The translations under genes were made by a program, and so were the position numbers. A stretch of DNA of 64,000 nucleotides from Elusimicrobiota bacterium (lineage in GTDB: Bacteria; Elusimicrobiota; Elusimicrobia; UBA1565; UBA9628), in NCBI GenBank assembly GCA_027406905.1, contig DAHZHT010000005.1, positions 50,080 through 114,079 on the forward strand. Direction: 5' to 3'. Shown here piece by piece: positions 8,335 through 44,840 of this stretch. Position 1 is the first letter of the stretch; each line of letters begins with the position of its first letter. Below the pieces are notes generated by a model, which was given only the letters and a program-made list of their open reading frames with translations, ran no database searches and was not told where the DNA came from.

Positions 8335-8336
8335 AT

Positions 8337-31784: not shown

Positions 31785-31817
31785 AGTTTCATTTTACCTT
31801 TTTCCGACTGAAAATAC

Positions 31818-31850
31818 AAAACCCGCCGAAAAAATTCAGCGGGTTTTGTT
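31818..31850 (-). terminator. rho-independent terminator downstream of cspA
   Basis: Stem ACCCGC / GCGGGT with a 12-nt loop. T-runs flank the stem on both strands. Confidence 0.6.
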
Positions 31851-32222: not shown

Positions 32223-33725
32223 TTAGGACGCTTCCAAAATTTTTCTCTTGAGGATAACCCTCATTGATCTTCTGGTTTCATCAACGGCGATCTGGCCAAA
32301 TTTTTGTTTAAGCATTTCTAAAAAACCCGGGTCAGAATGGTATTTCATCCAGGCATAATCGCGGAAAGATAAAACCTCTTTTGCGCTCAGATGTTTTGTC
32401 GGCAATGGAAGGGTGTGATACGAATGTTGGGAAAAACCAGAGTAGCTCTTCGGCAGTTCCCAACCCGCTTTTTTAGCCATTCCATGCAGAGGGCTTCCCG
32501 GATAGGCCATCGCGGAATAAAAATTGGCCTCCTCCGTTCTCATTTCAAGCGCCAAATTCAACGTGGCTTGCATGCTTGACTGATCATCCTCCGGAAGGCC
32601 GAAAATATAGTTGGCGATGACGTTAATTCCGTGTTCTCTTATTTTTCTAACAACAGAGCGAATGTCAACGTCCTCAAATCGACCCTTGGTCACATCTTTG
32701 CGCACAAGAGAATTTGCGCTTTCAATTCCCAAGGCCAGCCAGTTGATTCCGGCCTTTTTCATCGTCTCAAGATAGCGATCCTTGACCGTATCCACTCTGG
32801 AATAACACCAAATATTAAAATTGTATCCTCGCTCAATAATAAGCTGGCACAGTTCTAAAAAATGATTCGGATTAAGAACAAAAAGCTCATCGGCAATTTT
32901 GATGTTCTTAATTCCTTGAGAGGCGAAATAATCGAAATCTCTGATAATATGTTTGGGATCCCAATAACGAAAAATAGCGCTCCCATCAGAAAATTCATTT
33001 TTTTGCCGATTGATGATATTGATCATGCAGAAAGAGCATTTCATTGGGCAGCCGAGACTTGTGTAAAGGGCCGCAAAAGGCTGCCTTTGAGATTGATTCG
33101 GATAAGAATGCCAGAGCGAAGTCCTATAATTTTTCATGGGAAGCAAATCCCAGGCGACTCCAGGCAAATCTTTTGGTAAATCTTCCTTGGCCACGATCGG
33201 AGAGGGAGAATTGAAAATGACTTTTCCGTTCTCTCTGTAACCGAGCCCAAGCACTTTGTCCAATCGATCGGAAAGATTTCCAGCTAAAAGGTTAGACAGG
33301 GTGTAAACTCCTTCGTTTTGACAAACAAAGTCTATGCTGGGATGCTTCCCCATCACTTCTTGAGGCAAGGCCGCGACATGTCCACCCACAAAAATAATTT
33401 TAATTTCCGGGAAATTCTTCTTAAGATGATCCGCCAGAGCCGTGGCTCCCTCCATATTCTGAGAACTCGCGGAAGGTTGCTGTCCATAAACCACGAAACA
33501 GGCAAGGCGGGGATTCAGATTTATAGTATGGGAAACGGCTTCATCATCCGTTAAGCGCAATGCTTCACAATCCAAGAGGTCAACGCGGTATCCTTTCATG
33601 CGACAGTGAGAGGCAAGCATTCCGGCCCAGATGGGCGGTTCAATCGCGGAGAAATCCTCGCTTAAATCCTGATAAACGCGATGTCCCGAATTGGAATGAA
33701 TAAAAAGAACATCAAGTTGATTCAT
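32223..33725 (-). CDS. cobalamin (B12)-binding radical SAM enzyme (class-B-like)
   Basis: N-terminal B12-binding Rossmann-like region. CxxxCxxC as CPMKCSFC. 500 aa. Confidence 0.75.
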   Translation of the reverse strand: MNQLDVLFIHSNSGHRVYQDLSEDFSAIEPPIWAGMLASHCRMKGYRVDLLDCEALRLTDDEAVSHTINLNPRLACFVVYGQQPSASSQNMEGATALADHLKKNFPEIKIIFVGGHVAALPQEVMGKHPSIDFVCQNEGVYTLSNLLAGNLSDRLDKVLGLGYRENGKVIFNSPSPIVAKEDLPKDLPGVAWDLLPMKNYRTSLWHSYPNQSQRQPFAALYTSLGCPMKCSFCMINIINRQKNEFSDGSAIFRYWDPKHIIRDFDYFASQGIKNIKIADELFVLNPNHFLELCQLIIERGYNFNIWCYSRVDTVKDRYLETMKKAGINWLALGIESANSLVRKDVTKGRFEDVDIRSVVRKIREHGINVIANYIFGLPEDDQSSMQATLNLALEMRTEEANFYSAMAYPGSPLHGMAKKAGWELPKSYSGFSQHSYHTLPLPTKHLSAKEVLSFRDYAWMKYHSDPGFLEMLKQKFGQIAVDETRRSMRVILKRKILEAS

Positions 33726-33830
33726 GAGCTTTCTGATTTTAGCATACCCTGAAGCCTGAAAATTGTGTTTATCCTTTAATGATATAATAGACTCTATGAA
33801 AGAAATATTTTCCTATCCGGCCTTGCCCTG

Positions 33831-34826
33831 ATGAAGGCTCCTTTTTATTCCTCTCTCTCTAGCGGCATGAGAGATTGGAAGCTCTACCGACTCATGCTTA
33901 AAATCAGGATGTCGGAGCAGAAAATTATTGATATTTATCCGAGCGATAAAATACAGAGCCCCATTCATCTTTCGATAGGACAAGAAGCCGTGGCTGCCGG
34001 TGTTTGTCTCGCCCTTAAATCCAGCGATCGAATTTATGGCACATACCGGGGACATGGAATTTACATTGCAAAGGGGGGAGATCTTGGGAAGATGTTCTCC
34101 GAGCTCTACGGAAAAGAAACCGGCTGTTCCAGAGGAAAAGGGGGATCCATGCATCTCTCCGCTCCGGAAGTCGGATTAGTCGGATGTTCAGCGATTGTTG
34201 GCAGTTTTATTCCCGTAGCCACGGGAGACGCTTTGGCCGCTCAAATGCGAAAAGATTCTCGCGTGGTCTGTTCGTTTTTTGGAGATGGAGCCGTTGATGA
34301 GGGCGTTTTTTTTGAAAGCGTTAATTTCGCCATTCTTAAAAATCTTCCCATTGTTTATGTTTGCGAGAACAATGGCTATGCGATCCACTCAAAAGTTTTG
34401 GATCGCCACAAACAGCCTTCCCTCGCCCGTCTCGTCTCTGGTCTCGGCTTGATTGGAAAACGCCATGATGGGAATGACGCTCCTGTCGTTTTTAAAACAA
34501 TGAGCCAAGCCATCACTCAAGCGCGTAAAGGCAAAGGCCCCGTTTTCCTGGAATATATGACCAATCGATGGCATGAACATGTCGGCCCCGGAACAGATTA
34601 TCAGGAGTCTTATCACTCCCCCAAAGACAAAGAAAATAATTCGCGCAATGACCCCATCAAAAAAATGGAAAAAATTTTGAAAAAACGGAAGGGATTTTCA
34701 CTCAGGGCGGATATTCTCAAGAAAGAAATTCAAAATGAGATAGACCAGGCCGTCAATTTCGCGGAGAAAAGCCCTTTCCCGTCCCTTCAGTCGCTTTATC
34801 ATGATCTTTATGCGGAGTCTCGATGA
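33831..34826 (+). CDS. thiamine-diphosphate-dependent dehydrogenase E1 alpha-like subunit
   Basis: ThDP-binding motif GDGAVDEGVFFESVNFA...CENNGYAI. Similar to pyruvate/acetoin dehydrogenase E1 alpha. Confidence 0.8.
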   Translation: MKAPFYSSLSSGMRDWKLYRLMLKIRMSEQKIIDIYPSDKIQSPIHLSIGQEAVAAGVCLALKSSDRIYGTYRGHGIYIAKGGDLGKMFSELYGKETGCSRGKGGSMHLSAPEVGLVGCSAIVGSFIPVATGDALAAQMRKDSRVVCSFFGDGAVDEGVFFESVNFAILKNLPIVYVCENNGYAIHSKVLDRHKQPSLARLVSGLGLIGKRHDGNDAPVVFKTMSQAITQARKGKGPVFLEYMTNRWHEHVGPGTDYQESYHSPKDKENNSRNDPIKKMEKILKKRKGFSLRADILKKEIQNEIDQAVNFAEKSPFPSLQSLYHDLYAESR

Positions 34827-35854
34827 AAAGGATGAATTACGGCCAAGCTATTCGTTCGGCGCTTCTCCATTCCATGGAACAAGATTCCTCTATTTTTATC
34901 ATGGGAATTGGAGTTGACGATCACAAGGCTGTTTTTGGAACAACGGCTGGATTGGTTGGGCGTTTTGGGAGAAATCGCGTTTTTGACACCCCCATTTCAG
35001 AATCTGGAATGACGGGCATCGCCATAGGAGCGGCCTTGGCGGGCATGAAGCCAATCCATATTCATATTCGCTCCGATTTCCTTTATCTTGCCATGGATCA
35101 GATCGCCAACATCGCCGCCAAGTGGTCTTCCATGTTTGGAGGCAACGCTTCCGTCCCGTTAGTCATTCGCTCCATCGTTGGACGAAGTTGGGGGCAAGGG
35201 GCGCAGCATTCTCAAAGCTTGCAATCGCTCTTTATGCATATTCCAGGCCTTAAGGTTCTCATGCCGACAACACCTTCCGAGGCGCAAGGCCTTCTTATCG
35301 CGGCGATCCAAGATCCTAACCCCGTACTAATTTTTGAGCATCGGCTTCTCTATGATATTATCGGAGATGTTCCCGATACGCCGACTGCGTTGCCGCTTGG
35401 CCGCGCGATAATTCGCCGAAAAGGAAGCGATATGACTCTTGTCGCCGGATCATATATGGCGGTAGAAAGCTTAAAGGCCGCAGAGTTTCTGTCCAAACAT
35501 GGCGTGGAGGCGGAAATTGTAGATCCAGTGTCTCTTGTCCCCCTGGATGAAAATAGAATTTTAGCATCCGTCGCAAAAACGGGGAGGGTCATCGTTATTG
35601 ATTCCAGCTGGACCACTTGCGGAATGAGCGCCGAGATCGCCGCCCTTATCGTTGAAAAAGGATTTCATTTCCTCAAAGCTCCGATACGCCGTCTTGGAAT
35701 GCAGCCCGTTGTCTGCCCCGTGAGCAAACCCCTGGAAGCAGCTTTCTATCCTAACGCAAAACTGATTGCCGCAGAGGCATTAACAATGCTGGGACGGGAT
35801 TTCCCAAAAACTCCCGCGCCTGAATTGCTCAACACGTTCAAAGGACCTTTTTAA
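34823..35854 (+). CDS. E1 beta-like (transketolase-type pyrimidine-binding and C-terminal domains) subunit
   Basis: Similar to 2-oxoacid dehydrogenase E1 beta. 4-nt overlap with the E1 alpha gene. Confidence 0.8.
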   Translation: MKRMNYGQAIRSALLHSMEQDSSIFIMGIGVDDHKAVFGTTAGLVGRFGRNRVFDTPISESGMTGIAIGAALAGMKPIHIHIRSDFLYLAMDQIANIAAKWSSMFGGNASVPLVIRSIVGRSWGQGAQHSQSLQSLFMHIPGLKVLMPTTPSEAQGLLIAAIQDPNPVLIFEHRLLYDIIGDVPDTPTALPLGRAIIRRKGSDMTLVAGSYMAVESLKAAEFLSKHGVEAEIVDPVSLVPLDENRILASVAKTGRVIVIDSSWTTCGMSAEIAALIVEKGFHFLKAPIRRLGMQPVVCPVSKPLEAAFYPNAKLIAAEALTMLGRDFPKTPAPELLNTFKGPF

Positions 35855-35855: not shown

Positions 35856-37028
35856 ATGTTGCGCTATTACCTTGCTGAAGATACTATTAACCATTCCGAT
35901 GTTGACCGGCTTATCTCTTGGCTTAAAACCTATCCGCGCCTGACCAAGGGAGAAGTGACCCTTGATTTTGAGAACAAATGGGGACAATGGCTCGGGCGCG
36001 AATATTCCATCTTTTGCAATTCCGGCTCTTCCGCCAATCTTCTTATGTTTTACGCCCTTCTTCTCTCAAAGCGTTTAAAAAATAAAAAAATTATCGTCCC
36101 AAGCGTTGGCTGGGTCACTTCAGTGGCGCCAGCCATTCAATTCGGTTTTGAGCCCATTATGTGTGAGGCCGATCCTGAAACATTTGGCCTTGATCTTTCT
36201 CACCTGGAAATCCTGCTCAAACGTCATCGCCCCGGGGCGGTCATGCTTGTTCAGGTCTTGGGCGTTCCCCACAAAATGGACGAAATATTGAAACTTAAAA
36301 AGCGCTATGGGTTTCTTCTGCTTGAAGATGCCTGCGCCGCCGTTGGCGCTGAGTATCATGGAAACAAAGTGGGAACATTCGGAGATATGGCCAGTTTTTC
36401 CTACTATTTTGGGCACCAATTTTCCACGATTGAAGGGGGAATGGTTTCAACGAACGATAAGCACCTGGCAGACCTTTTGTTGATGTTGCGCAGTCACGGC
36501 TGGAGCAAGGATTTAGATGCGACAACTCATAAAAAATTAATTCGACAATATCGTGTTGATGATTTCCACAGTCCGTTTGTATTTTATGAGCCGGGGTTTA
36601 ATCTCCGATCAACCGATCTTAACGCCTATATTGGATTAGGCCAGATAGAAAAACTGTCCATGATCATAAAGGCTCGCCAAAAAAATCACTCTCAATATTT
36701 AAATCGCCTCGGTGATTATTTTTACACGCAAAAATGGGACAAAGAATCTCGCGTTTGCAGCATTTCATTTGGTCTTCTCGCAAAAAACAGAAGTGAGCGC
36801 GCGGCGGTTGTCTCGGCCCTTAACTCCCATGGAATTGAAACTAGAATTTTCTCCGCTGGAAACTTGGGCCTTCACCCTTTTTGGGTCAAGCGATACGGCA
36901 AGGCAAGTTTTCCTTTCGCCGATCGAATTCACCACACGGGATTTTTCCTTCCCAACAACCCCTCGCTTTCAGCCAAAAACATTGATTTTATATCGGATGT
37001 CGTTCTTGCCGCCGCTTTAAGAACATGA
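35856..37028 (+). CDS. DegT/ColD-family PLP enzyme, predicted nucleotide-sugar 3-dehydratase (catalytic Lys position replaced by His)
   Basis: Segment VGTFGDMASFSYYFGHQFSTIEGGMV...LRSHGWSKDLD resembles the ColD/E1 dehydratase subgroup of DegT proteins, where His replaces the Schiff-base Lys. Confidence 0.65.
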   Translation: MLRYYLAEDTINHSDVDRLISWLKTYPRLTKGEVTLDFENKWGQWLGREYSIFCNSGSSANLLMFYALLLSKRLKNKKIIVPSVGWVTSVAPAIQFGFEPIMCEADPETFGLDLSHLEILLKRHRPGAVMLVQVLGVPHKMDEILKLKKRYGFLLLEDACAAVGAEYHGNKVGTFGDMASFSYYFGHQFSTIEGGMVSTNDKHLADLLLMLRSHGWSKDLDATTHKKLIRQYRVDDFHSPFVFYEPGFNLRSTDLNAYIGLGQIEKLSMIIKARQKNHSQYLNRLGDYFYTQKWDKESRVCSISFGLLAKNRSERAAVVSALNSHGIETRIFSAGNLGLHPFWVKRYGKASFPFADRIHHTGFFLPNNPSLSAKNIDFISDVVLAAALRT

Positions 37029-37111: not shown

Positions 37112-37950
37112 GGCGAGTTCCGTTATGCCGATTTCAATCGTGAATCCGCTCAATTGGGGTTTTTTCACCGGGAAATAATTAGTTGTTGAGGGGCACTGGT
37201 GTCCGGGGAAAATCAGAACTCGAAGCATAGTTGAGGTTCCGTATTCCGCAACATGGATAATTTTCTCTCCGGTAGCCGCAGCAAATCGATCAGGCTGAGG
37301 CGATCCAAAAGGGTATTCTGAACGAGCTGTTGGAGCGGACAAGCGAGCGATGAAAGCGACATTGAAACTTGATGTAGGCCAGGAGCAAAAAGTACGTCAT
37401 GGACGCCCAAACCTGCGTGAGCACGGCGTTCTTGGAGGTGCCGAGGAACGTCTTTATCCGAAGGTGCGGCGTGATCCACTTGAAGAAAAGCTCCAGACAG
37501 AGGTCGATAGTGCCGGAATCGAAAGCGCACACGGGGTTTTTGAAGCGAAATTGATGATTGGGGGCGATGGCCTGGCAGCGCTCCAGAAGCTGGTAGAAGA
37601 GTTTCTCCATGATGCGGGAATCGCGTTTGGCGTTGGCGTCGGCCAAGGTCGATCGCTTCACGGCGGGCAATCCCCAGGTGGTAGAGCTTGGGCTCCTGGG
37701 TCTCCAGGGCGGTCTGGATGTCGCACAGGCTATTCTTGTTGGCGGCTTGAGCATACAGCAGCACCGTCAGTTGGTTCCAGGTCGAGAACTTTTTGACGTA
37801 ATGGTCTCCGCCGAAGTCGGAAACGGCTTGGTCGAACTGATGTCGGGGCAAAAGCGTCAACAACTGGTTCATGATTGTGTTAGAATACATTTGAAGAGTC
37901 CTCCGTCGGTATATTTAGCTTGCTCAGCACAAGTATTCTGCCAATGATGG
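37112..37950 (-). mobile_element. IS4-family insertion sequence remnant (3'-truncated)
   Basis: Two consecutive minus-strand reading frames give an IS4-family transposase N-terminal half (LLPRHQFDQAVSDFGGDHYVKKFSTWNQLTVLLYAQAANKNSLCDIQT; RSTLADANAKRDSRIMEKLFYQLLERC). No catalytic DDE C-terminal half. No inverted repeats identified. Confidence 0.65.
37213..37890 (-). pseudogene. frameshifted, truncated IS4-family transposase
   Basis: Covers ORFs 37213..37890 and 37290..37754, which are in different frames. Together they span about 250 aa, where a full-length transposase is more than 400 aa. Confidence 0.65.
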
Positions 37951-37998: not shown

Positions 37999-38937
37999 AT
38001 GAGAATGCGTATTTTTTTGACTGGCGGTAGCGGAATGGTTGGCAGAAATTTTCTTGAACATTCTGCCATAAGCGGATTCGATGTACTCGCCCCACACAGG
38101 AATGAGCTTAACTTGTTGGATTTTCAGGCAGTGACGGCATACGTTCGCGCACATAACCCTGATATTGTCATTCATGCCGCCGGTCGAGTGGGCGGTATTG
38201 AGGCCAATATGCGGGAGCCTGTTCGCTTTCTGATGGAAAACATGGATATGGGGCGCAATGTTGTTTTGGCGGCGCGTTCCATCGGAGTAAAGAAATTGTT
38301 GAATCTGGGGAGTTCTTGCATGTATCCTAGGAATGCCCCTAATCCACTGCATGAAGACATGGTGCTGAGCGGCGAACTAGAGCCAACCAATGAAGGATAT
38401 GCGCTTGCCAAGGTTGTTGTCGCGCGTCTATGTGAATATATTTCTCGCGAGAATCCGGAATATAAATACAAGACATTAATCCCGTGCAATCTCTATGGCC
38501 GCTATGACAACTTCGAACCATCGCGATCGCATTTGATGCCGGCAATTATTCATAAAATCCAAGAGGCTAAGTCCTCTGGATCAAGTGAAGTCACAATATG
38601 GGGTAATGGTATCGCGCGGCGAGAATTTATGTACGCTGGCGATTTGGCGGATTGCTTGATTGAGTCCGTTCGTCGTTTTGATAGTCTTCCCAATGTTATG
38701 AATGTGGGCGTTGGAGAAGATGCCAGCGTTGATGATTACTACAAAACCACTGCTGAAGTTATCGGTTATGGAGGCAAATTCACGCATGACTTAACCAAAC
38801 CGGTTGGAATGATGCGTAAGTTAGTATCGACGCAGAGGGCACAAGAGTGGGGATGGCGCGCTACAACTTCTTTGCGCGAAGGAATCAGGAAAGCATATGA
38901 CTTTTATGTGCAAGCATCAAAATTGAGAGTGGTATAA
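37999..38937 (+). CDS. fcl: GDP-L-fucose synthase family 3,5-epimerase/4-reductase (Fcl/ColC-like)
   Basis: Colinear with Fcl: MRIFLTGGSGMVGRN, LGSSCMYP, LEPTNEGYALAK, NLYGRYDNFEPSRSHLMPA, TIWGNGIARREF. Confidence 0.85.
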   Translation: MRMRIFLTGGSGMVGRNFLEHSAISGFDVLAPHRNELNLLDFQAVTAYVRAHNPDIVIHAAGRVGGIEANMREPVRFLMENMDMGRNVVLAARSIGVKKLLNLGSSCMYPRNAPNPLHEDMVLSGELEPTNEGYALAKVVVARLCEYISRENPEYKYKTLIPCNLYGRYDNFEPSRSHLMPAIIHKIQEAKSSGSSEVTIWGNGIARREFMYAGDLADCLIESVRRFDSLPNVMNVGVGEDASVDDYYKTTAEVIGYGGKFTHDLTKPVGMMRKLVSTQRAQEWGWRATTSLREGIRKAYDFYVQASKLRVV

Positions 38938-39046: not shown

Positions 39047-39991
39047 ATGAAAAAAGAAAAAATACTCATAACGGGGGGAGCGGGATACCTTGGATCGGTG
39101 ATGACTCGCCTTTTCCTTGAAACAGGCTATCACGTGCTTGTTCTGGATAATTTTATGTATGGACAATCCAGCCTTCTGGATTTTTGTGTTTTTGATTCTT
39201 TTGAAGTTGTGCGTGGAGACTGCCGCGATGAAGCTCTTATGAAAGGCCTCATCAAGGACGTGGATGCGGTCATTCCCTTGGCCGCATTGGTTGGCGCCCC
39301 TATCTGCAACCGCGATAAAATCGCCGCTGCGACCACCAATAGAGACGCGATCCAAATGCTCTGCCGCATAGCCGCCCCATCTCAAAAAATTCTTTTCCCC
39401 GTCACAAACAGCGGATATGGAATAGGAGAGAAAGGGAAATTTTGCACCGAGGAGAGTCCGCTGCGGCCAATTTCTTTTTACGGCCAAACAAAGGTTGAAG
39501 CGGAAAAAGCCATCTTGGATCGAGGCAATGGAATAACTTTTAGATTAGCGACAGCCTTTGGCGCTTCCCCCCGGATGCGAATGGATCTCCTGGTCAACGA
39601 TTTTGTCTACCGCGCGCTGGTGGACCGAGCTCTCATAGTGTTTGAGGGACACTTTAAGCGTAATTATATCCATGTCAGGGATATCGCGCGAGTTTTTCTT
39701 CATGGATTAAATAATTTCGAGACGATGAAAAATCAAACCTACAACGTGGGTCTTGAAGATGCCAACCTTTCAAAAATTGAGCTCTGCGCTCTTATTCAAA
39801 AAACTCTTCCGCAATTTGTCTATCACCAAGCGGAGATAGGAGAAGATCCCGATAAGCGCGATTACATCGTTTCTAACGCAAAAATACTCGCCACGGGATT
39901 TAAGCCCCAATGGAGCATCGAACGCGGAATCAAGGAACTCATTAAATGTTACACCGCTCTTGGAAAGGTCAATCTCTATGGAAATATTTAG
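39047..39991 (+). CDS. NAD-dependent epimerase/dehydratase (extended SDR)
   Basis: ILITGGAGYLGS Rossmann motif and YGQTKVEAEK (YxxxK). Lacks the T(D/E)xVYG motif of 4,6-dehydratases. Confidence 0.7.
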   Translation: MKKEKILITGGAGYLGSVMTRLFLETGYHVLVLDNFMYGQSSLLDFCVFDSFEVVRGDCRDEALMKGLIKDVDAVIPLAALVGAPICNRDKIAAATTNRDAIQMLCRIAAPSQKILFPVTNSGYGIGEKGKFCTEESPLRPISFYGQTKVEAEKAILDRGNGITFRLATAFGASPRMRMDLLVNDFVYRALVDRALIVFEGHFKRNYIHVRDIARVFLHGLNNFETMKNQTYNVGLEDANLSKIELCALIQKTLPQFVYHQAEIGEDPDKRDYIVSNAKILATGFKPQWSIERGIKELIKCYTALGKVNLYGNI

Positions 39992-39997: not shown

Positions 39998-40993
39998 ATG
40001 ATCATCACTCGAACTCCCTTTCGCATGTCTTTTTTTGGCGGCGGAACGGATTATCCCGATTGGTATCGTGAGCATGGCGGAGCGGTTGTCGCCGCGACTA
40101 TCGACAAATATTGTTACATCACCTGCCGCTATTTGCCACCGTTTTTTAATTACAAGAGCCGCATTCTCTATTCAAAGATAGAATTAGTCGAAAATAATTC
40201 AAAAATTGAACATCCCGCCGTCCGCGCCGTTTTATCCGAATTGGGCATCGATTCAGGATTAGAAATTCATCATGATGGAGATCTTCCCGCCCGCACGGGT
40301 CTTGGTTCAAGTTCGGCTTTTCTTGTAGGCCTTCTCCATGCTATTTCCGCTTTAAAAAATCGAATGTCAACAAAAATGGAACTGGCAAAGACGGCGATAC
40401 ACGTTGAACAAACCGTGCTGAAAGAGAATGTCGGCTGCCAAGATCAGGTCATTACCGCCTTTGGCGGATTACAACGCATCGATTTTCAAAAAAGGGGCGA
40501 TATTCATATCAACCCCATTGTTATCAGCGAAGAGCGGCTGAAATTCCTGGAAAGTTCGGTCCTTCTCTATTTTACCGGCTTTTCCCGTATTGCCTCGGAA
40601 ATTGTTAAAGAGCAACTACAAAACATTCCTCAAAAAGCCCACGAGCTTTTACGCATTCGCGAGATGGTCGATGAATCAATTGAAATCCTCTCTGGAAATG
40701 GCGATTTAAACGAGTTTGGCAAACTCCTGGATGAAAGCTGGGAGCTTAAAAGAAGGCTCAGCTCCAAGGTTTCCTCCCCTGCTATTGATGAAATCTATAA
40801 AGCCGCGAAATCAGCCGGGGCTTTGGGCGGAAAAATCATGGGCGCCGGCGGCGGGGGATTTATGATGTTGTTTGCCCCCCCCGAAGCTCATCCGCGCATT
40901 CATGAAAAGCTAAAACATCTTTTAAGAATCCCCTTTCATTTTGAAAACGAGGGCAGTCACATTATTTACTATCACCCCAATGGAGGTCGCTAA
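39998..40993 (+). CDS. GHMP-family sugar kinase (heptose-7-phosphate kinase HddA / fucokinase-like)
   Basis: N-terminal TPFRMSFFGGGTDYPDWY and GHMP motif PARTGLGSSSAFLVGLL. Confidence 0.7.
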   Translation: MIITRTPFRMSFFGGGTDYPDWYREHGGAVVAATIDKYCYITCRYLPPFFNYKSRILYSKIELVENNSKIEHPAVRAVLSELGIDSGLEIHHDGDLPARTGLGSSSAFLVGLLHAISALKNRMSTKMELAKTAIHVEQTVLKENVGCQDQVITAFGGLQRIDFQKRGDIHINPIVISEERLKFLESSVLLYFTGFSRIASEIVKEQLQNIPQKAHELLRIREMVDESIEILSGNGDLNEFGKLLDESWELKRRLSSKVSSPAIDEIYKAAKSAGALGGKIMGAGGGGFMMLFAPPEAHPRIHEKLKHLLRIPFHFENEGSHIIYYHPNGGR

Positions 40994-41693
40994 CGCCATC
41001 GAAGTAGATGCCATAATTCTTTGCGGAGGGCAAGGCCGCCGCCTCGTGAAAGTTCTCCCTGACTTGCCTAAAGCTCTTGCCCCTATTGGAAACAAATCTT
41101 TCCTCGATATTCTACTCGACTACGCTGTCCAAGAAGGACTGCGGCGTTTTATTTTTTGCCTTGGACACCGCGCAAGCGCCATAGAAGAGAGATTAAGCGC
41201 GCGGCAGGATTGCGATATCGTTTTTTCAAAAGAGACCGTTCCGCTTGGGACCGCTGGCGCTCTCAAATTATGCGAACCATTGAGAAGAAGTCGAACATCC
41301 CTAGTGATGAATGGCGACTCTCTATGCAATTTCAACATCAAGGAGTTTCTTAAAGCCCATGTAGAAAATAACGCTTCGGCAAGCGTCGCGGCGGTCATGG
41401 CGCCCGATAGAGATGACGGCGGATTTATCGAGTTCGCAAAGGATTATCAGATCACGCGATTTAATGAAAAATATGGAAGCGCGAAATATATTAACGCTGG
41501 AGTTTACGCGCTCAACTCCGAGCTTTGGGGGAAAATTCCCCCAGAGCGACCCTGTTCCATCGAGAAAGACGTCTTCCCGCAACTCGTGGGACACGGCCTT
41601 TTCGCCTGGCCCACTCACGCGCCACTTTTTGACATTGGAACTCCGGAACGCCTTGAGGCTTTTCGGCTCTTATATGCTAGTAGAGATCCTTGA
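40980..41693 (+). CDS. sugar-1-phosphate nucleotidyltransferase (HddC / GDP-sugar pyrophosphorylase-like)
   Basis: AIILCGGQGRRL...LPKALAPIGNKSFLD. About 238 aa. Overlaps the kinase gene end. Confidence 0.7.
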   Translation: MEVANAIEVDAIILCGGQGRRLVKVLPDLPKALAPIGNKSFLDILLDYAVQEGLRRFIFCLGHRASAIEERLSARQDCDIVFSKETVPLGTAGALKLCEPLRRSRTSLVMNGDSLCNFNIKEFLKAHVENNASASVAAVMAPDRDDGGFIEFAKDYQITRFNEKYGSAKYINAGVYALNSELWGKIPPERPCSIEKDVFPQLVGHGLFAWPTHAPLFDIGTPERLEAFRLLYASRDP

Positions 41694-42876
41694 TTTTATC
41701 GCAGACATGCTCCGCGAATGGAATCGCACAGGTAAATCCGGGCGAAACGGCGTTGAGCACGTGCAGGGAGCGATTGTCTCCTTCGACGACAAAATCCATC
41801 TCGAGCTTCATTGTCTCGATATTCAACAGCTGGGCGCGCATGCCTGGCAGCCCCCATTTCCTGAAATTTTCAGGCCGCACTCCTTTCAATAAACGCCCCG
41901 CCAAAGCGGCCATTCTCTGCGCGGAATACTTTTGGAATTCCTCCAGGGCCAACCTCTTAAAATCAAAATCTGAATAAAAGAGAAGTCCTATATTTCTTGC
42001 CGTGATTTCAAGCATTTCTTTAAGAGAAAAGCCCTCCAGGCCCGCGTACTGCTCTCTCCAAAACGCCGGGATGGCCGTTGGACCAATATGGACGTTTCCA
42101 TTCGCCGCGAGGGTAAAGTGAACTCCGAGAAAGGGATTGCGGATATCGGGCACGGGATAGACATTCGTCCGAACGGAACCGACAGGCTCTGTCGAATTAA
42201 GATAAAGCCCTTTAAAAGGCACGATGCGGTGACGCTGTGAAAACCCAAAATCGCGAGCGATTTTATCAGCATAGAGGCCCGCCGCGTTGACCACATATCC
42301 CGCTTTGATAACTCCGGCGCTCGTGCGTACGCCATTAGGACCCACGGACAAATAGGCTTCATTTTCTCGAATATCGACCCCCTCGCTGATTGCGTCTTGG
42401 CGCAGAGATTCCATGACTTGAAACGGGTCGACCGTGGATGTCGTAGGGGAGAAAAGGGCTTTTTCATAAGTCAAGACTCGAGGTTCTATCTCTTGAGCTT
42501 CTTTCGAACTCAACATCCAAAGCGGAACCCCATTGGCTTTTCCTCGACGCATTAGTTCCTCAAGGGCCAGAATATCCTCGGGACCCTGGGCGACGACCAG
42601 TTTCCCGCAGCGGTTGAGTGGAATATTTTTATCCTCGCAATAACGAGTCAAGGCTTTGTTCCCCGATCTAGCCAATTGAGCTTTTAAGCTGTCGGGAAAA
42701 TAATAAAATCCGGCATGGATGACGCCGCTATTGCGCCCGCTGGCATGGAGGCCGCATCTCTTCTCTTTTTCCAGAACGGCGACGGAACAGTCCGGATGGA
42801 GAACTTTAAGTTCTCGGGATATTTGTATCCCGATGATTCCACCGCCGATAACGACAAAATCCCGCGATTCTATCAC
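41677..42876 (-). CDS. FAD-dependent oxidoreductase, L-2-hydroxyglutarate oxidase (LhgO)-like
   Basis: DFVVIGGGIIGIQISRELKVLHPDCSVAVLEKE...GLHASGRNSGVIHAGFYY, consistent with the LhgO/DAO family. Confidence 0.7.
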   Translation of the reverse strand: MIESRDFVVIGGGIIGIQISRELKVLHPDCSVAVLEKEKRCGLHASGRNSGVIHAGFYYFPDSLKAQLARSGNKALTRYCEDKNIPLNRCGKLVVAQGPEDILALEELMRRGKANGVPLWMLSSKEAQEIEPRVLTYEKALFSPTTSTVDPFQVMESLRQDAISEGVDIRENEAYLSVGPNGVRTSAGVIKAGYVVNAAGLYADKIARDFGFSQRHRIVPFKGLYLNSTEPVGSVRTNVYPVPDIRNPFLGVHFTLAANGNVHIGPTAIPAFWREQYAGLEGFSLKEMLEITARNIGLLFYSDFDFKRLALEEFQKYSAQRMAALAGRLLKGVRPENFRKWGLPGMRAQLLNIETMKLEMDFVVEGDNRSLHVLNAVSPGFTCAIPFAEHVCDKIKDLY

Positions 42877-42882: not shown

Positions 42883-44127
42883 TCAGGAATTTTGCTGGAG
42901 TTCGGAAGATGGAAATATCCGCGAAAGAGCGGCTCCGGAGAAAATAATCAATAGGGCTAAGGCTGGAAGCTGGTAGCGATTGTCCCAATACCCGACGAAA
43001 ATGTGAAGACTGTAGTAGCAAAATCCCGCAAAGGCAAGAGTAGAAGCTATTGTCCAATTTGTACGCCGTAAATACATTTCCCAAAAGGCAAGAATCAAGG
43101 TCGCTAGTTCAAAAACCCAAAGGACAGCCCTAATCACAATGGGCCCCCAACGTCCTTCTTGGCGATAAACGGAAATGGGTTGATCAATCCCGAACATCGC
43201 CGAATGGCTGGTCAACCAAAAATGAATCAGGCGAGACGGGAGTTTAAAGATCAATCGCGGCCAATTGGCTTTATAATTATTCAAGGCCATCCGATAAAAT
43301 TCGGCATCCGTCTCGATCTCGCTTCTCCCCACGGCCACCTGTTTTTGGACTGCCCCAACGTCGAGAGGGCGGGAAAGCTGCGAACCGCACCAAAGCGCGG
43401 GCCCTCCCCCTGTCGCCACCGGAATCCAAACTCCCATGACCTGTTTGTTTCTCAAAGACCAAGGAAGAAGCGTTAAGTAGGCGCACAGGAGAACTCCCGC
43501 AAGATGCCGCAACAGGCGCGGTTTTTTATGATGGAAAAGAAGAATAAGGAATGCGGCTCCTGGAGGAAATAAAATAAGGCTGGGCCGACAGAGAATCGCC
43601 AGTCCAAGCACAAAGCCCGCGAAAGCAAACAACCACTCCAGATTTTTCTTTAAATTTGACTCAAAAGCGTAAAGTAAAAGACAAAGGGCGGACGACCATG
43701 TCATGATAAACAGAGTCTCCGTCATAATTTCCGCGGTATAAGCGATAAAAACAGGATGAAGAGCGTAAAAGGCCGCCCCAAAAATCGCTCCCCTGCGTTC
43801 ATTGAGAGCATAAAGACCAAAAAGATAGATAAGCCCGATCGTTATTGTGTCTAAGAATGCTTGCGCTGCGCGCGCGTAAAACCACGGCCTATTGGAAAGC
43901 ATGACAAAAATAGAAAGGAATGCCGGATATAAAGGAGGGCGTATCGCCGTAGGCTGATTTCTAATCATGGAAAATTCGCCATGGAGGGCTATATTTTGGG
44001 CAATGCCGGCATACTCTACGCTATCTCCCAACAAAGGCGCCGATCTTTTTACCACCACCATGCTGATTCGAAGGATAAATCCCATGACCAAAACAATAAA
44101 CAAAGGATTTCTTAAAAAATTTTTCAT
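42883..44127 (-). CDS. GT-C fold glycosyltransferase (family 39 ArnT/PMT-like), second copy
   Basis: Polytopic membrane protein. Start set at MKNFLRNPLFIVLVMGF, whose ATG overlaps the GT2 stop (ATGA). Confidence 0.6.
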   Translation of the reverse strand: MKNFLRNPLFIVLVMGFILRISMVVVKRSAPLLGDSVEYAGIAQNIALHGEFSMIRNQPTAIRPPLYPAFLSIFVMLSNRPWFYARAAQAFLDTITIGLIYLFGLYALNERRGAIFGAAFYALHPVFIAYTAEIMTETLFIMTWSSALCLLLYAFESNLKKNLEWLFAFAGFVLGLAILCRPSLILFPPGAAFLILLFHHKKPRLLRHLAGVLLCAYLTLLPWSLRNKQVMGVWIPVATGGGPALWCGSQLSRPLDVGAVQKQVAVGRSEIETDAEFYRMALNNYKANWPRLIFKLPSRLIHFWLTSHSAMFGIDQPISVYRQEGRWGPIVIRAVLWVFELATLILAFWEMYLRRTNWTIASTLAFAGFCYYSLHIFVGYWDNRYQLPALALLIIFSGAALSRIFPSSELQQNS

Positions 44128-44840
44128 TTCGATCCCTTCCGCCGCCAATAGAAAATTTCTCGAAGGATCTGTGCCATATAGGCTAAACCCCAACGCACAA
44201 TTTGGAGCTTCCGGTCTCCGCCTAGGCGCTTTGGCTCATCTCCAGGAATTTCCGTCACTCTCAGACGTGTTTTTGCGCAGCGGACGGAAAGGATAGGTTC
44301 CCAACTGATGCGTGTACAAAAAAATTTCTCCGGCGTGTAGGTCGAGTCCTTATCTAAATCAAGCAACCCAATAAGGTCTTTCTTATACGCGCGATACATG
44401 ACCATGGCGTCAGTGTATTGTCCGCCAAAAAGGAAGTTGATTGTATAGGTAAAAAGCCAATTGCCAAAAGCGGTCATGAAATCATCATCTTCGCTTTTGG
44501 CGCCGGCCAGGTAGCGAGACACAATCACCATGTCATAACCTTCTTTGATTTTCTCAATCAATGGGGGAATTAATTCTGGGAGAGAATTCCCATCAGGGCT
44601 GAAGGTGATAATGACATCACCTTTGATTAAGCTCATTGCTTCCAAATAGCCATGGCGCAACCCGCGCTCTTTCTGAACGATAACATCAAATCCCTGAGAA
44701 TGACAATACCCCACCGTGCCATCATTAGAGCCGCCATCAAGGACTAAAATTTGGTCAACCCAACGGCGATCAATAAGCGGCATAATTTGACGCATCCCAA
44801 TTTCTTCATTTAAGACTGGAACCAAAAGGGTGGTCTTCAT
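44124..44840 (-). CDS. GT2 polyprenyl-phosphate sugar synthase (ArnC/DPM1-like)
   Basis: VPVLNEE...ILVLDGGSNDGT...DxD-type motifs. 238 aa. Confidence 0.75.
   Translation of the reverse strand: MKTTLLVPVLNEEIGMRQIMPLIDRRWVDQILVLDGGSNDGTVGYCHSQGFDVIVQKERGLRHGYLEAMSLIKGDVIITFSPDGNSLPELIPPLIEKIKEGYDMVIVSRYLAGAKSEDDDFMTAFGNWLFTYTINFLFGGQYTDAMVMYRAYKKDLIGLLDLDKDSTYTPEKFFCTRISWEPILSVRCAKTRLRVTEIPGDEPKRLGGDRKLQIVRWGLAYMAQILREIFYWRRKGSK

What the first reader, a model, noticed from the sequence alone, without database searches (positions are those of the whole stretch)
32223..33725. Cobalamin-dependent radical SAM enzyme divergently transcribed from the sugar operon
B12-binding domain plus CPMKCSFC. 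Class-B rSAM enzymes in carbohydrate clusters are typically C-methyltransferases on unactivated carbons. Sharing a 105-bp divergent promoter region with the E1 alpha gene suggests co-regulation with the sugar pathway.
Basis: inference. Interest (0 to 1): 0.55.

Follow-up and report, generated by a model that had tools for sequence, protein, structure and literature searches.

The report
B12 radical SAM enzyme, branched-heptose pathway
The gene encodes an uncharacterised cobalamin-type radical SAM enzyme that sits, in bacteria of many phyla, inside one conserved gene set predicted to turn GDP-heptose into a 3-deoxy, carbon-branched surface sugar whose structure nobody has yet determined.

Summary
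A 500-aa ORF at 32223-33725 (-) has a B12-binding domain, a radical SAM core and the C226PMKC230SFC233 motif, and lies 105 bp from a divergent E1-alpha gene.

It matches no curated family: HpnJ scores 149 bits against a cutoff of 578, and BchE 122 against 481. It belongs to a large orthologous family, with at least 452 relatives found among one-genome-per-species contigs, in many phyla.

In 48 related loci with enough flank, the family sits with:
- a thiamine enzyme in 44 (E1ab, split transketolase or YerE-like)
- a ColD-type Lys-to-His PMP 3-dehydratase in 43
- an HddA-like kinase in 41
- a Cj1427-like GDP-heptose C4-dehydrogenase in 39.

A natural rSAM-E1alpha fusion exists. Solidesulfovibrio magneticus RS-1 plasmid pDMC1 carries the full set.

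The predicted route is GDP-heptose, then 4-keto, then 3-deoxy-4-keto, then a thiamine-dependent C4 acyl branch, then the radical step, then export by a GT2 and a GT-C transferase.

Co-function with the sugar genes is strongly supported. The chemistry is not settled. C-methylation is the single most likely option (about 0.45). Rivals are carbocycle formation, as in caryose, and AprD4-like dehydration.

Verdict: an uncharacterised family in a new pathway context, of moderate to high interest.

The parts
32223..33725 (-). Cobalamin-type (class-B architecture) radical SAM enzyme, 500 aa. This is the finding.
   Evidence: Pfam B12-binding plus Radical_SAM, and the C226xxxC230xxC233 motif. No NCBIfam cutoff is met. 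AF2 model pLDDT 88; the best PDB folds are AprD4, TsrM, MgmA, CysS, TokK and OxsB. Followed by a csp gene and a terminator, so it is monocistronic on the minus strand.
33726..33830 (.). 105-bp divergent intergenic region between the rSAM gene and E1-alpha.
   Evidence: Coordinates. No significant sigma-70-like site in the gap.
33831..34826 (+). ThDP-dependent E1 alpha subunit (331 aa) with no E2 or E3 partner. Predicted carboligase that adds a C2 acyl unit to the C4 ketone.
   Evidence: Pfam E1_dh 1.2e-57. PDH E1-alpha model 282 bits, below the cutoff of 394. Present next to relatives in 34 of 48 loci. Found fused to the rSAM in P0167.
34823..35854 (+). ThDP-dependent E1 beta subunit (343 aa).
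   Evidence: Pfam Transket_pyr plus Transketolase_C. Homologues of 43-75% identity lie in related loci.
35856..37028 (+). ColD-type PMP-dependent NDP-4-keto-sugar 3-dehydratase (DegT fold with the catalytic Lys replaced by His).
   Evidence: Best PDB hits are ColD 2gms/3gr9 at E 1e-54. His aligns with ColD H188, identified through the differing residue at that position in entry 3b8x. His is present at this position in the cassette copy in all related loci examined, while non-cassette DegT paralogues keep Lys.
37213..37890 (-). Truncated IS transposase remnant (DUF4372 only, 225 aa) inserted between the 3-dehydratase and SDR genes. Not a functional part of the pathway.
   Evidence: Pfam DUF4372 2.2e-25. 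Absent at this position in the closest syntenic locus, L003.
37999..38937 (+). Fcl-like SDR (GDP-L-fucose-synthase-like, 312 aa). Predicted ketoreductase and/or epimerase, playing the YerF-like role.
   Evidence: NCBIfam GDP-L-fucose synthase 310 bits, below the cutoff of 500. An SDR of this type is present in 35 of 48 related loci.
39047..39991 (+). Cj1427-like SDR. [quoted passage not shown]
   Evidence: PDB 6VO6/6VO8 at E 1.7e-114, 385 bits over residues 4-313; 4,6-dehydratases score only about 1e-12. That 6VO6 is Cj1427 rests on my memory plus the matching molecule name. Cj1427 chemistry is from PMC10680097. Present in 39 of 48 loci.
39998..40993 (+). HddA-like GHMP sugar kinase (331 aa).
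   Evidence: Best PDB hits are heptose phosphate kinases: 3k85 at 3e-41 and 4n3o. NCBIfam HddA 140 bits, below the cutoff of 600. Present in 41 of 48 loci.
40941..41693 (+). HddC/ManC-like sugar-1-phosphate guanylyltransferase (250 aa).
   Evidence: Pfam NTP_transferase. NCBIfam mannose-1-P guanylyltransferase 110 bits and HddC 92 bits, both below their cutoffs. Present in 33 of 48 loci.
41677..42876 (-). L-2-hydroxyglutarate oxidase (LhgO). Predicted to recycle the L-2-HG made by the Cj1427-like dehydrogenase back to alpha-ketoglutarate.
   Evidence: NCBIfam NF008726 307 bits, above the cutoff of 299. Homologues occur in 8 of 48 related loci. An annotated lhgO lies in the S. magneticus RS-1 cassette.
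42883..44193 (-). PMT_2 / ArnT-like GT-C glycosyltransferase (436 aa). Predicted to transfer the sugar from a polyprenyl-phosphate carrier to its acceptor outside the cytoplasm.
   Evidence: Pfam PMT_2 5.3e-16. A 'phospholipid carrier-dependent glycosyltransferase' sits in the S. magneticus cassette.
44124..44840 (-). GT2 polyprenyl-phosphate glycosyltransferase (AglJ / dolichyl-P-hexose-transferase-like, 238 aa).
   Evidence: Pfam Glycos_transf_2. NCBIfam AglJ 83 bits, below cutoff. Homologues of 50-66% identity lie in about 14 related loci and in S. magneticus (52%).

Best explanation
The gene encodes the radical-SAM tailoring enzyme of a conserved, widely distributed nucleotide-heptose pathway. 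It is not a housekeeping enzyme.

Predicted route (steps 1-4 by homology to characterised enzymes, steps 5-6 by inference):
1. [quoted passage not shown] GmhA and GmhB are encoded elsewhere in this genome and inside the cassette in some relatives.
2. The Cj1427-like SDR oxidises C4, reducing alpha-ketoglutarate to L-2-hydroxyglutarate, which the adjacent LhgO re-oxidises.
3. The ColD-type His-containing PMP enzyme removes the 3-OH, giving GDP-3-deoxy-4-keto-heptose.
4. The E2-less E1 alpha/beta ThDP enzyme adds an acyl (probably acetyl, from pyruvate) carbanion to the C4 ketone, as YerE does in yersiniose synthesis.
5. The B12-rSAM enzyme reductively cleaves SAM at its C226/C230/C233 [4Fe-4S] cluster. 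The 5'-deoxyadenosyl radical abstracts a hydrogen from an unactivated carbon of the GDP-linked branched heptose. By analogy with GenK and Fom3 this is most likely the C7 hydroxymethyl carbon, and methylcobalamin then delivers a methyl group, so the net reaction is C-methylation.
6. The Fcl-like SDR reduces the remaining ketone. A GT2 enzyme loads the sugar onto polyprenyl phosphate, and a GT-C (PMT_2) enzyme transfers it to an envelope acceptor.

I hold membership of this pathway at about 0.9. I hold the specific chemistry (methylation) at about 0.45, and that is the confidence given below.
For: Pathway membership:
- In 48 genome loci with at least 6 kb on both sides of a family member (43-75% identity, many phyla), 44 carry a ThDP enzyme: E1a in 34, split transketolase in 8, ALS/YerE-type in 4. 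This is non-orthologous replacement of one function.
- In the same 48 loci, 43 carry the DegT, 41 the GHMP kinase, 39 the Cj1427-like SDR and 35 a second SDR.
- The cassette DegT has His at the ColD H188 position in every locus where the cassette copy aligned across that site, down to 25% identity.
- P0167 is a natural rSAM-E1alpha fusion.
- The complete gene set, including GT2, GT-C, lhgO and a GmhA-like SIS protein, forms one co-directional gene block (likely a single operon) on S. magneticus RS-1 plasmid pDMC1.
- A reverse search seeded on E1beta gave 16 metagenome loci with enough flank. Nine have this family, 5 have another B12-rSAM and only 2 have none.
- Cj1427 plus a C3-dehydratase make GDP-3-deoxy-4-keto-heptose in vitro, and Cj1427 converts aKG to L-2HG (PMC10680097).
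- YerE adds pyruvate-derived acetyl to a 3-deoxy-4-keto NDP-sugar and YerF then reduces it (PMC9306805).

Methylation:
- The B12-binding domain scores above the Pfam threshold, and the N-terminal domain has many invariant residues (E29, W33, D52, G81, P84, G114).
- The fold matches the class-B methylases TsrM, MgmA, CysS and TokK.
- From established knowledge, most characterised class-B enzymes are methylases, and GenK and Fom3 methylate hydroxymethyl-type carbons.
- Several invariant Arg/Lys residues (R201, R253, R299, R310, K347, R455, R494) would suit a nucleotide-diphosphate substrate (inference).
Against: - No methylase family model is met (KedN5 51 bits against 700; HpnR 40 against 650).
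- The top curated hits (HpnJ, BchE) and the top solved structure (AprD4) are non-methylating enzymes. These similarities are generic, though: an unrelated cassette rSAM from L148 scores HpnJ 152 and BchE 179.
- The family lies directly beside a separate KedN5-like B12-rSAM in at least 6 loci. If that neighbour is the methylase, this family may do something else.
- Cobalamin binding itself is untested, and AprD4 has the same fold without using B12 (from memory).
- One carrier is a Pelagibacteraceae genome (L021). That lineage is generally thought not to use B12 (from memory).
- The identity of the sugar, the acyl donor and the order of steps are all inferred.
Confidence: 0.45

Rival explanations
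1. Radical carbocyclase. The enzyme abstracts H from C7 of GDP-4-C-acetyl-3-deoxy-heptose, and the C7 radical adds to the branch carbonyl (C8), closing a cyclopentane fused to the pyranose. The product would be a caryose-type sugar (4,8-cyclo-3,9-dideoxy-nonose): heptose plus C2, 3-deoxy, with tertiary alcohols at C4 and C8 and a terminal methyl. The reaction would be redox-neutral and involve no methyl transfer.
For: The predicted intermediate is one C7-C8 bond away from the caryose skeleton. All other features of caryose (3-deoxy, C4 tertiary alcohol, 9-deoxy methyl, nine carbons) are what the neighbouring enzymes would produce (structure named in PMC9092360). Caryose biosynthesis is stated to be unknown, and the rSAM enzymes HpnJ, PtmC and Cds are the proposed sugar-to-cyclopentane catalysts (PMC9092360). 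HpnJ is this protein's best curated hit and BchE, another five-ring former, is second. The link to the ThDP enzyme is tight and includes a fusion. An rSAM is nearly always present in heptose-plus-ThDP cassettes (14 of 16), whereas the published hexose-based YerE and ErwE pathways are described without one.
Against: The HpnJ and BchE similarity is weak and generic (149 and 122 bits; other B12-rSAMs score the same). A ketoreductase-type SDR accompanies the cassette in 35 of 48 loci, yet cyclisation would consume the only ketone. In some cassettes the rSAM slot is filled by a different family, which is easier to explain for a generic activity.
Confidence: 0.2
2. AprD4-like radical dehydratase, or another non-methylating, non-cyclising radical step such as epimerisation or oxidation. 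The enzyme would dehydrate a vicinal diol of the heptose (for example C6-C7) without using cobalamin, and the Fcl-like SDR would reduce the resulting carbonyl, as AprD3 does for AprD4, giving an extra deoxy position.
For: AprD4 is the best solved-structure match by sequence (E 3e-17 single sequence, 5e-25 by profile) and by fold (Foldseek E 2e-21, TM 0.68-0.75). An SDR reductase co-occurs in 35 of 48 loci. AprD4 acts on a sugar.
Against: Identity to AprD4 is under 20%, and the NCBIfam AprD4 model scores 85 bits against a cutoff of 500. The HMM alignment to AprD4 covers only the generic rSAM core, residues 216-426. The N-terminal B12-type domain is highly conserved, which is unexpected if it binds nothing. 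C3 deoxygenation is already covered by the ColD-type enzyme. Using a Cj1427-type dehydrogenase rather than a 4,6-dehydratase suggests the 6-OH is deliberately kept.
Confidence: 0.15
3. A housekeeping B12-rSAM enzyme (a hopanoid HpnJ/HpnP/HpnR, BchE or RNA-modifying orthologue) that merely lies next to a sugar operon by chance.
For: The best NCBIfam hits by name are HpnJ and BchE. Automatic annotations of relatives say 'anaerobic Mg-protoporphyrin IX monomethyl ester cyclase'.
Against: Scores are a quarter or less of the family cutoffs. There are no hopanoid or bacteriochlorophyll genes nearby. The sugar cassette, not any housekeeping context, is conserved around relatives across phyla, and a fusion to E1alpha exists.
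Confidence: 0.02

Closest known systems
Yersiniose A pathway (YerE ThDP carboligase plus YerF reductase) and the related erwiniose and caryophyllose schemes
   Same: A PMP-dependent 3-deoxygenation produces a 3-deoxy-4-keto NDP-sugar. A ThDP enzyme then adds an acyl carbanion to the C4 ketone and a reductase follows (PMC9306805). Four related loci use an ALS/YerE-type ThDP enzyme in place of E1ab.
   Different: The starting sugar here is predicted to be GDP-heptose with the 6-OH kept (Cj1427-type oxidation), not a CDP-3,6-dideoxyhexose. The ThDP enzyme is mostly an E2-less E1 alpha/beta pair. A B12-type radical SAM enzyme is an almost constant extra member, and it has no counterpart in the published YerE and ErwE pathways.
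Campylobacter jejuni capsular GDP-heptose modification enzymes (HddA, HddC, Cj1427 C4-dehydrogenase, HS:5 C3-dehydratase, C4-reductases)
   Same: The window has close homologues of the C4-dehydrogenase (PDB 6VO6, E 1.7e-114) and of the heptose kinase, a ColD-type 3-dehydratase and an Fcl-like reductase. The combination of Cj1427 and a C3-dehydratase gives GDP-3-deoxy-4-keto-heptose in vitro (PMC10680097).
   Different: In the C. jejuni pathways described in PMC10680097, the keto intermediate is only epimerised and reduced. No ThDP branching and no radical SAM step are described there, and there is no dedicated L-2-HG oxidase.
Class-B (cobalamin-dependent) radical SAM C-methyltransferases acting on sugars or nucleotide-linked substrates: GenK, GenD1, Fom3 (from memory; Fom3 also in the title of PMC8158854)
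   Same: N-terminal B12-binding Rossmann domain plus a CxxxCxxC rSAM core. The fold is shared with the solved methylases TsrM, TokK, CysS and MgmA. The predicted substrate is a nucleotide-linked hydroxylated carbon chain.
   Different: There is no significant family-level sequence membership. At 500 aa it is shorter than the 570-680 aa methylases. Methyl transfer is untested. It co-occurs with separate KedN5-like rSAMs.
HpnJ (hopanoid cyclitol-ether rSAM) and BchE (anaerobic Mg-protoporphyrin cyclase)
   Same: These are the best curated-model hits, aligned almost full length (HpnJ 62-469, BchE 29-463). Both are B12-domain rSAMs implicated in forming five-membered carbocycles, and HpnJ acts on a sugar (PMC9092360).
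   Different: Scores are 149 against 578 and 122 against 481, so it is not a member. There is no hopanoid or pigment gene context. The same level of similarity is shown by unrelated B12-rSAMs.
AprD4 (apramycin radical SAM 1,2-diol dehydratase, PDB 6FD2)
   Same: It is the closest solved structure by both sequence and fold, and its substrate is a sugar.
   Different: Identity is under 20%, and the NCBIfam model scores 85 against 500. AprD4 does not use cobalamin (from memory), whereas here the B12-type domain is strongly conserved.
AviB1/AviB2-type E1 alpha/beta homologues in antibiotic deoxysugar branching (from memory)
   Same: A PDH-E1-like alpha/beta pair without E2 or E3 lies inside a sugar cluster and is presumed to donate a two-carbon unit to a keto-sugar.
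   Different: Those act in actinomycete secondary metabolism on hexose or pentose intermediates and are not paired with a B12-rSAM. I did not compare sequences.

Membership tests
Radical SAM superfamily | CxxxCxxC motif that binds the SAM-cleaving [4Fe-4S] cluster, within a partial TIM-barrel core | tested here: met
   C226-x3-C230-x2-C233 is invariant in the family. Pfam PF04055 scores 62.9 bits against 29.5. The AF2 model superposes on rSAM structures.
Class B (cobalamin-dependent) radical SAM enzymes | N-terminal Rossmann-type B12-binding domain preceding the rSAM core | tested here: met
   Pfam PF02310 at residues 28-146, 54.8 bits against 32.1. The fold matches TsrM, OxsB, TokK, CysS and MgmA over both domains.
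Class B (cobalamin-dependent) radical SAM enzymes | Actually binds and uses cobalamin | not testable with these tools
   It needs purified protein. AprD4 shares the fold without B12 (from memory). No cobalamin genes or riboswitch were found in the window regions I annotated.
Class B C-methyltransferases (e.g. KedN5 family NF033712, HpnR TIGR04367, TsrM TIGR04428, MgmA TIGR04014) | Score at or above the curated family cutoff | tested here: not met
   KedN5 51 against 700; HpnR 40 against 650; TsrM 31 against 500; MJ_0865/MgmA 74 against 360.
Class B C-methyltransferases | Methyl transfer from SAM through methylcobalamin to a substrate carbon | not testable with these tools
   A biochemical assay is required.
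HpnJ (TIGR03471) | Curated cutoff of 577.6 bits and a hopanoid (hpn) gene neighbourhood | tested here: not met
   148.6 bits. The neighbours are sugar-nucleotide genes here and in relatives.
BchE (TIGR02026) | Curated cutoff of 481 bits and a bacteriochlorophyll gene context | tested here: not met
   121.7 bits. No pigment genes are present.
AprD4 family (NF033070) | Curated cutoff of 500 bits | tested here: not met
   84.6 bits, covering the core region only.
YerE/YerF-type acyl-branched sugar pathway | An enzyme that makes a 3-deoxy-4-keto NDP-sugar acceptor | tested here: met
   A ColD-type DegT with the Lys-to-His substitution, plus a C4-dehydrogenase homologue. Activity is inferred from homology.
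YerE/YerF-type acyl-branched sugar pathway | A ThDP-dependent carboligase encoded in the cluster | tested here: met
   E1 alpha/beta without E2 or E3. A ThDP enzyme of one of three types occurs in 44 of 48 related loci. Carboligation onto the sugar is inferred, not shown.
YerE/YerF-type acyl-branched sugar pathway | The ThDP enzyme is a YerE (ALS-like) orthologue | tested here: not met
   The window uses the E1 alpha/beta type. The ALS-like type appears in only 4 of 48 related loci.
[quoted passage not shown] | All four enzymes present and meeting curated cutoffs | tested here: inconclusive
   HddA-like scores 140 against 600 and HddC-like 92 against 300, although the best PDB hits are heptose kinases. 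GmhA and GmhB are absent from the 64-kb window but lie inside 13 and 12 of 48 related loci.

The most novel reading that the evidence does not exclude
This family is the missing carbocycle-forming enzyme for caryose-type sugars. A B12-domain radical SAM enzyme would close a cyclopentane by adding a C7 radical of GDP-4-C-acetyl-3-deoxy-heptose to the ThDP-installed branch carbonyl. If so, carbocyclic (pseudo-sugar) nonoses would be widespread envelope components across many bacterial phyla rather than a curiosity of one plant pathogen. A still bolder variant, not excluded, is direct radical-ThDP cooperation, as hinted by the rSAM-E1alpha fusion.
Probability: 0.18. Interest if true: 0.85.

Novelty: new variant of a known kind. 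Interest (0 to 1): 0.62.

Why it matters
If the reading is right, a large and very strongly conserved enzyme family marks a surface-sugar pathway that has not been described in the literature I could search. Members share 72-77% identity between phyla, and at least 452 relatives were found among one-genome-per-species contigs, including Omnitrophota, Planctomycetota, cyanobacteria, SAR11-type and Azospirillum genomes.

The predicted product is a heptose-derived, 3-deoxy, C4-acyl-branched sugar, further altered by radical chemistry, and exported by an ArnC/ArnT-like GT2 and GT-C pair.

Defining the radical step would add either a new sugar C-methylase or a new sugar carbocyclase to radical SAM enzymology. 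It could also reveal the origin of caryose-type sugars, which is stated to be unknown.

The cassette also shows a tidy piece of metabolic bookkeeping. The ColD-type step releases alpha-ketoglutarate, the Cj1427-type step reduces it to L-2-hydroxyglutarate, and a cassette-encoded LhgO restores it.

Cultured carriers make this directly testable: S. magneticus RS-1 plasmid pDMC1 and A. argentinense Az39 plasmid p5.

Tried and rejected
1. Trinickia/Burkholderia caryophylli genome. I wanted to check it for the cassette to test the caryose idea.
2. Literature searches. Searches combining radical SAM with GHMP kinase, heptose, cobalamin, O-antigen or yersiniose found nothing relevant. This shows absence only in the held library.
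3. PDB code '6VO6'. The search gave irrelevant hits and the Cj1427 structure paper is not held. The link between 6VO6 and Cj1427 therefore rests on memory and the matching molecule name.
4. Bradyrhizose as the product. I set this aside because its candidate cluster is built around a dTDP-glucose 4,6-dehydratase and its genes are otherwise unknown (PMC4743980).
5. KedN5-like rSAMs as replacements. I considered whether the KedN5-like B12-rSAMs in cassettes lacking this family (L093, L116) show non-orthologous replacement, which would imply this family is a methylase. That argument is weakened because the two families lie side by side in at least 6 loci.
6. Cobalamin genes. The tetrapyrrole-methylase ORF at 46974-47666 is RsmI. 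There is no B12 riboswitch, and no cob, cbi or btu genes in the roughly 51 kb of the window I annotated.
7. Promoter scan. The divergent region showed nothing above shuffled background.
8. Source organism. Exact look-ups of window proteins returned no names.
9. Fold search. It confirmed the class-B architecture but cannot tell the candidate chemistries apart, since all matches are under 20% identity.
Full report
**1. Observation**

The ORF at 32223-33725 (minus strand) is real and encodes 500 aa. Pfam finds a B12-binding domain at residues 28-146 (E 1.1e-14) and a Radical_SAM core at 222-391 (E 5.5e-17), both above their gathering scores. The cluster motif is C226-P-M-K-C230-S-F-C233.

The E1-alpha gene starts at 33831 on the other strand, so the shared intergenic region is exactly 105 bp. 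Downstream of the rSAM gene on the minus strand are a cold-shock protein gene (31873-32076) and a strong terminator-like hairpin (31849-31816). The rSAM gene is therefore the only cassette gene on that side. A consensus promoter scan shows nothing above background in the gap.

**2. What family it is**

No NCBIfam model reaches its cutoff:

| Model | Score (bits) | Cutoff |
|---|---|---|
| HpnJ | 148.6 | 577.6 |
| BchE | 121.7 | 481 |
| ApyD | 94 | 750 |
| PhpK family | 86 | 600 |
| AprD4 family | 85 | 500 |
| MgmA-type (MJ_0865) | 74 | 360 |
| KedN5 family | 51 | 700 |
| HpnR | 40 | 650 |

The closest solved chain by sequence is AprD4 (6fd2, E 3e-17; 5e-25 with a family profile). MgmA (9ccb), TokK, OxsB, TsrM and CysS follow.

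An AlphaFold model built on a 15-sequence alignment is confident (pLDDT 88, pTM 0.89). Foldseek gives the same set of structures, with AprD4 at TM 0.68-0.75 and then TsrM, MgmA, CysS, TokK and OxsB. All are under 20% identical.

The architecture is therefore class B. The protein belongs to no characterised family, and neither sequence nor fold decides its chemistry. The HpnJ and BchE hits should not be over-read, because an unrelated B12-rSAM from a related cassette (L148) scores HpnJ 152 and BchE 179.

**3. The family is large, conserved and tied to one gene set**

The word-indexed search returned 8000 hits, and the best 120 are all 71-77% identical full-length proteins. Where they carry a name, they are named as coming from Omnitrophota or Elusimicrobia MAGs. 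The exhaustive representative search found 808 50%-identity clusters at E<=1e-30.

Neighbourhoods of three close homologues show the same partners as the window:
- E1-type ThDP genes
- a DegT-family gene
- two SDR 'epimerase' genes
- a GHMP kinase
- an NTP-transferase.

A scan of one genome per species found at least 452 relatives. The best 80 (43-74% identity) come from Omnitrophota, Planctomycetota, Pelagibacteraceae, Burkholderiaceae, Cyanobacteria (including Prochlorococcus and Floridaenema), Verrucomicrobiota, Nitrospirota, Acidobacteriota, Myxococcota, Bdellovibrionota, Chlamydiota and even archaeal MAGs.

Among the 48 loci with at least 6 kb on both sides of the rSAM gene, the counts are as follows (tblastn with several representatives per family):

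| Partner | Loci of 48 |
|---|---|
| Any ThDP enzyme | 44 |
| E1alpha | 34 |
| Split transketolase type | 8 |
| Acetolactate-synthase/YerE type | 4 |
| DegT | 43 |
| GHMP kinase | 41 |
| Cj1427-like SDR | 39 |
| Second SDR | 35 |
| NTP-transferase | 33 |
| GmhA | 13 |
| GmhB | 12 |
| LhgO | 8 |
| No cassette at all | 3 |

The additional families were identified. A ThDP gene lies within 2.6 kb of the rSAM gene in 36 of the 48 loci. The most frequent gene immediately upstream of the rSAM is the DegT (14 of 48 loci), and a co-directional E1a-E1b-DegT-rSAM order recurs in many loci.

One family member (P0167, 829 aa) is a natural fusion of the full-length rSAM with an E1alpha that is 40% identical to the window's.

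A reverse search seeded on E1beta in metagenome contigs gave 16 loci with enough flank. Nine carry this family, five carry a different B12-rSAM and two carry none.

**4. What the neighbours do**

- **ColD-like 3-dehydratase.** The DegT protein (35856-37028) is most similar to ColD, the PMP-dependent GDP-4-keto-6-deoxymannose 3-dehydratase (E 1e-54). It has His where aminotransferases have the Schiff-base Lys, at the position of ColD H188. I identified that position because PDB entry 3b8x carries a different residue (Asn) there. In every related locus where the cassette DegT aligned across this site, including the cultured strains, it has this His even at 25% identity, whereas extra DegT paralogues nearby keep Lys.
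- **Cj1427-like dehydrogenase.** The SDR at 39047-39991 matches PDB 6VO6/6VO8 at E 1.7e-114, against about 1e-12 for 4,6-dehydratases. From memory, 6VO6 is C. jejuni Cj1427, and the PDB molecule name matches that gene's annotation. I could not confirm the code in a held paper.
[quoted passage not shown] Together with a PLP/Glu-dependent C3-dehydratase it yields GDP-D-glycero-3-deoxy-4-keto-heptose in vitro (PMC10680097).
- **Kinase and nucleotidyltransferase.** The kinase is closest to heptose phosphate kinases (3k85, 4n3o). The nucleotidyltransferase is closest to ManC/HddC types.
- **LhgO.** The FAD oxidase at 41677-42876 passes the curated cutoff for L-2-hydroxyglutarate oxidase (307 against 299). 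It recurs in related cassettes, including an annotated lhgO in S. magneticus.
- **E1 alpha/beta.** The pair has no E2 or E3 partner nearby.
- **YerE precedent.** ThDP-dependent addition of a pyruvate-derived acetyl unit to the C4 ketone of a 3-deoxy-4-keto NDP-sugar, followed by reduction, is the established YerE/YerF route to yersiniose. It has been generalised to erwiniose and caryophyllose (PMC9306805). That three unrelated ThDP enzyme types occupy this slot in different cassettes argues that the ThDP step is the conserved function.
- **Export.** The GT2 (AglJ/dolichyl-P-hexose-transferase-like) and the PMT_2 GT-C protein at 42883-44840 resemble an ArnC/ArnT-type export pair. Both have counterparts in the S. 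magneticus cassette. The GT2 is 50-66% identical in about 14 related loci.

**5. Mechanistic reading**

Shown by homology: the cassette should make GDP-heptose, oxidise C4, remove the 3-OH and present a 3-deoxy-4-keto acceptor to a ThDP enzyme.

Inferred: the B12-rSAM acts on the GDP-linked branched heptose, next to the ThDP step. The fusion, the adjacency and the near-constant co-occurrence support this.

For the chemistry I commit to C-methylation as the single most likely option (about 0.45). My reasons:
- The B12 domain is intact and highly conserved (invariant E29, W33, D52, G81, P84, G114).
- Most characterised class-B enzymes are methylases.
- GenK and Fom3 are precedents for methylating a hydroxymethyl-type carbon, Fom3 on a nucleotide-linked substrate (established knowledge).

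The site I favour is C7 of the heptose. This is an inference.

The main rival (about 0.2) begins with the same C7 radical but adds it to the branch carbonyl, giving a cyclopentane. The predicted intermediate is one bond away from caryose (4,8-cyclo-3,9-dideoxy-nonose), whose biosynthesis is stated to be unknown. The rSAMs proposed for sugar-to-cyclopentane conversions include HpnJ (PMC9092360). Against this rival, a ketoreductase-type SDR usually accompanies the cassette, and the HpnJ similarity is generic.

An AprD4-like dehydration paired with the SDR is a third option (about 0.15). A housekeeping role is effectively excluded.

**6. Evidence that cuts both ways**

In cassettes lacking this family, the rSAM present is sometimes KedN5-like. 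Two examples, L093 and L116, score 285 and 274 bits on the methylcobalamin C-methyltransferase subfamily model. That could mean functional replacement by a methylase. However, this family and KedN5-like genes lie side by side in L031, L057, L072, L076, L096 and L107, so they are not simply interchangeable.

**7. Comparison with known systems, and novelty**

The pathway works like a hybrid of the C. jejuni heptose-modification enzymes and the YerE/YerF branching route, with a radical SAM step that neither has. The enzyme has class-B architecture but meets no family definition that I could test.

I found no description of this cassette or family in the searchable literature. I rate it a new variant of a known kind: an uncharacterised family in a new pathway combination.

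Cultured carriers exist:
- S. magneticus RS-1 plasmid pDMC1, with the full cassette (NC_012797.1, rSAM at 24342-25847)
- A. argentinense Az39 plasmid p5, where a split transketolase is divergent from the rSAM gene, mirroring the window
- A. lipoferum 4B plasmid AZO_p6.

**8. Limits**

- Cobalamin use, the substrate, the acyl donor, the order of steps and the acceptor of the sugar are all untested.
- The window region I annotated contains no cobalamin genes, and the whole window contains no B12 riboswitch. This says little about the rest of the genome.
- The caryose hypothesis could not be checked against the producer's genome.

Noticed in passing
Family members P0122, P0126, P0129, P0131, P0132, P0135, P0136, P0139, P0146, P0150, P0156, P0158, P0160, P0166, P0173, P0175, P0186, P0192 and others; equivalent to window residue C230 (codon near 33036-33038): About 20 of the 150 best 50%-identity cluster representatives of this rSAM family carry an intein (Hint, with or without a LAGLIDADG endonuclease). 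It is inserted at or next to the second Cys of the CxxxCxxC cluster motif, around residues 230-233. Other members have inteins near residue 335 (P0141) or 404 (P0203, P0253). This is an unusually intein-rich enzyme family, with the insertion in the catalytic motif itself.
   Followed up: partly
P0167 (829 aa), relative of window 32223-33725 and 33831-34826: A natural fusion of the full-length B12-rSAM (residues 7-494, 40% identity) with an E1-alpha ThDP subunit (residues 518-829, 40% identity to the window's E1-alpha). This is a Rosetta-stone link between the two divergently transcribed window genes.
   Followed up: yes
window 41677-42876 (-): An L-2-hydroxyglutarate oxidase (above the curated cutoff) sits inside the sugar cassette. 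It recurs in related cassettes, including the annotated lhgO of S. magneticus pDMC1. It would close a cofactor loop: the ColD-type step releases alpha-KG from Glu, the Cj1427-type dehydrogenase reduces alpha-KG to L-2-HG, and LhgO regenerates alpha-KG.
   Followed up: partly
window 37213-37890 (-): A truncated IS transposase (DUF4372 N-terminal domain only, 225 aa) is inserted between the 3-dehydratase gene and the Fcl-like SDR gene. The closest syntenic locus (L003) has no insertion there and carries a different SDR at that position, so the cassette may have been rearranged here.
   Followed up: partly
window 31873-32076 (-) and 31816-31849: A 67-aa cold-shock protein gene ([18 protein letters not shown]...), missed by the 80-aa ORF filter, lies just downstream of the rSAM gene and is followed by a 15-bp-stem terminator-like hairpin. 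A sigma-70-like site (10 of 12 matches, TG-extended) lies at 32178-32151.
   Followed up: partly
L087 (Azospirillum lipoferum 4B plasmid AZO_p6, NC_016588.1), locus positions about 2586-9748: Next to the rSAM, Fcl-like and kinase genes lie a PEP-utilising enzyme, a gamma-glutamyl hydrolase-family protein, a phosphocholine-type cytidylyltransferase, an adenylyl-sulfate-kinase-like protein and a SAM methyltransferase. From memory, this set resembles the C. jejuni O-methyl-phosphoramidate (MeOPN) genes Cj1415-Cj1418.
   Followed up: no
L071 (Verrucomicrobia MAG); also L031, L057, L072, L076, L096, L107: Several related loci hold more than one B12-rSAM gene. L071 has five. In six loci a KedN5-like B12-rSAM lies directly beside the family member. 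L003 and A. argentinense Az39 each have an extra 571-581-aa BchE-like B12-rSAM. P0184 is a tandem double rSAM in one polypeptide.
   Followed up: partly
L040 9344-9934; L087 16732-17370; L088 15503-15982: A NUDIX hydrolase gene recurs next to the rSAM or kinase genes in some cassettes (A. lipoferum, S. magneticus and four genome loci) but is absent from the window. It could be a GDP-sugar hydrolase with a proofreading role.
   Followed up: no
window 16916-18568 (-) and 8872-9780 (-): A second PMT_2-family GT-C protein (550 aa) and an RmlD-type dTDP-4-dehydrorhamnose reductase lie elsewhere in the window, outside the cassette, among housekeeping genes (infB, nusA, tsaD).
   Followed up: no
window 42883-44193 and 44124-44840 (-): The listed PMT_2 ORF (TTG start at 44193) overlaps the end of the upstream GT2 ORF by 70 bp. 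The true PMT_2 start is probably further downstream.
   Followed up: no
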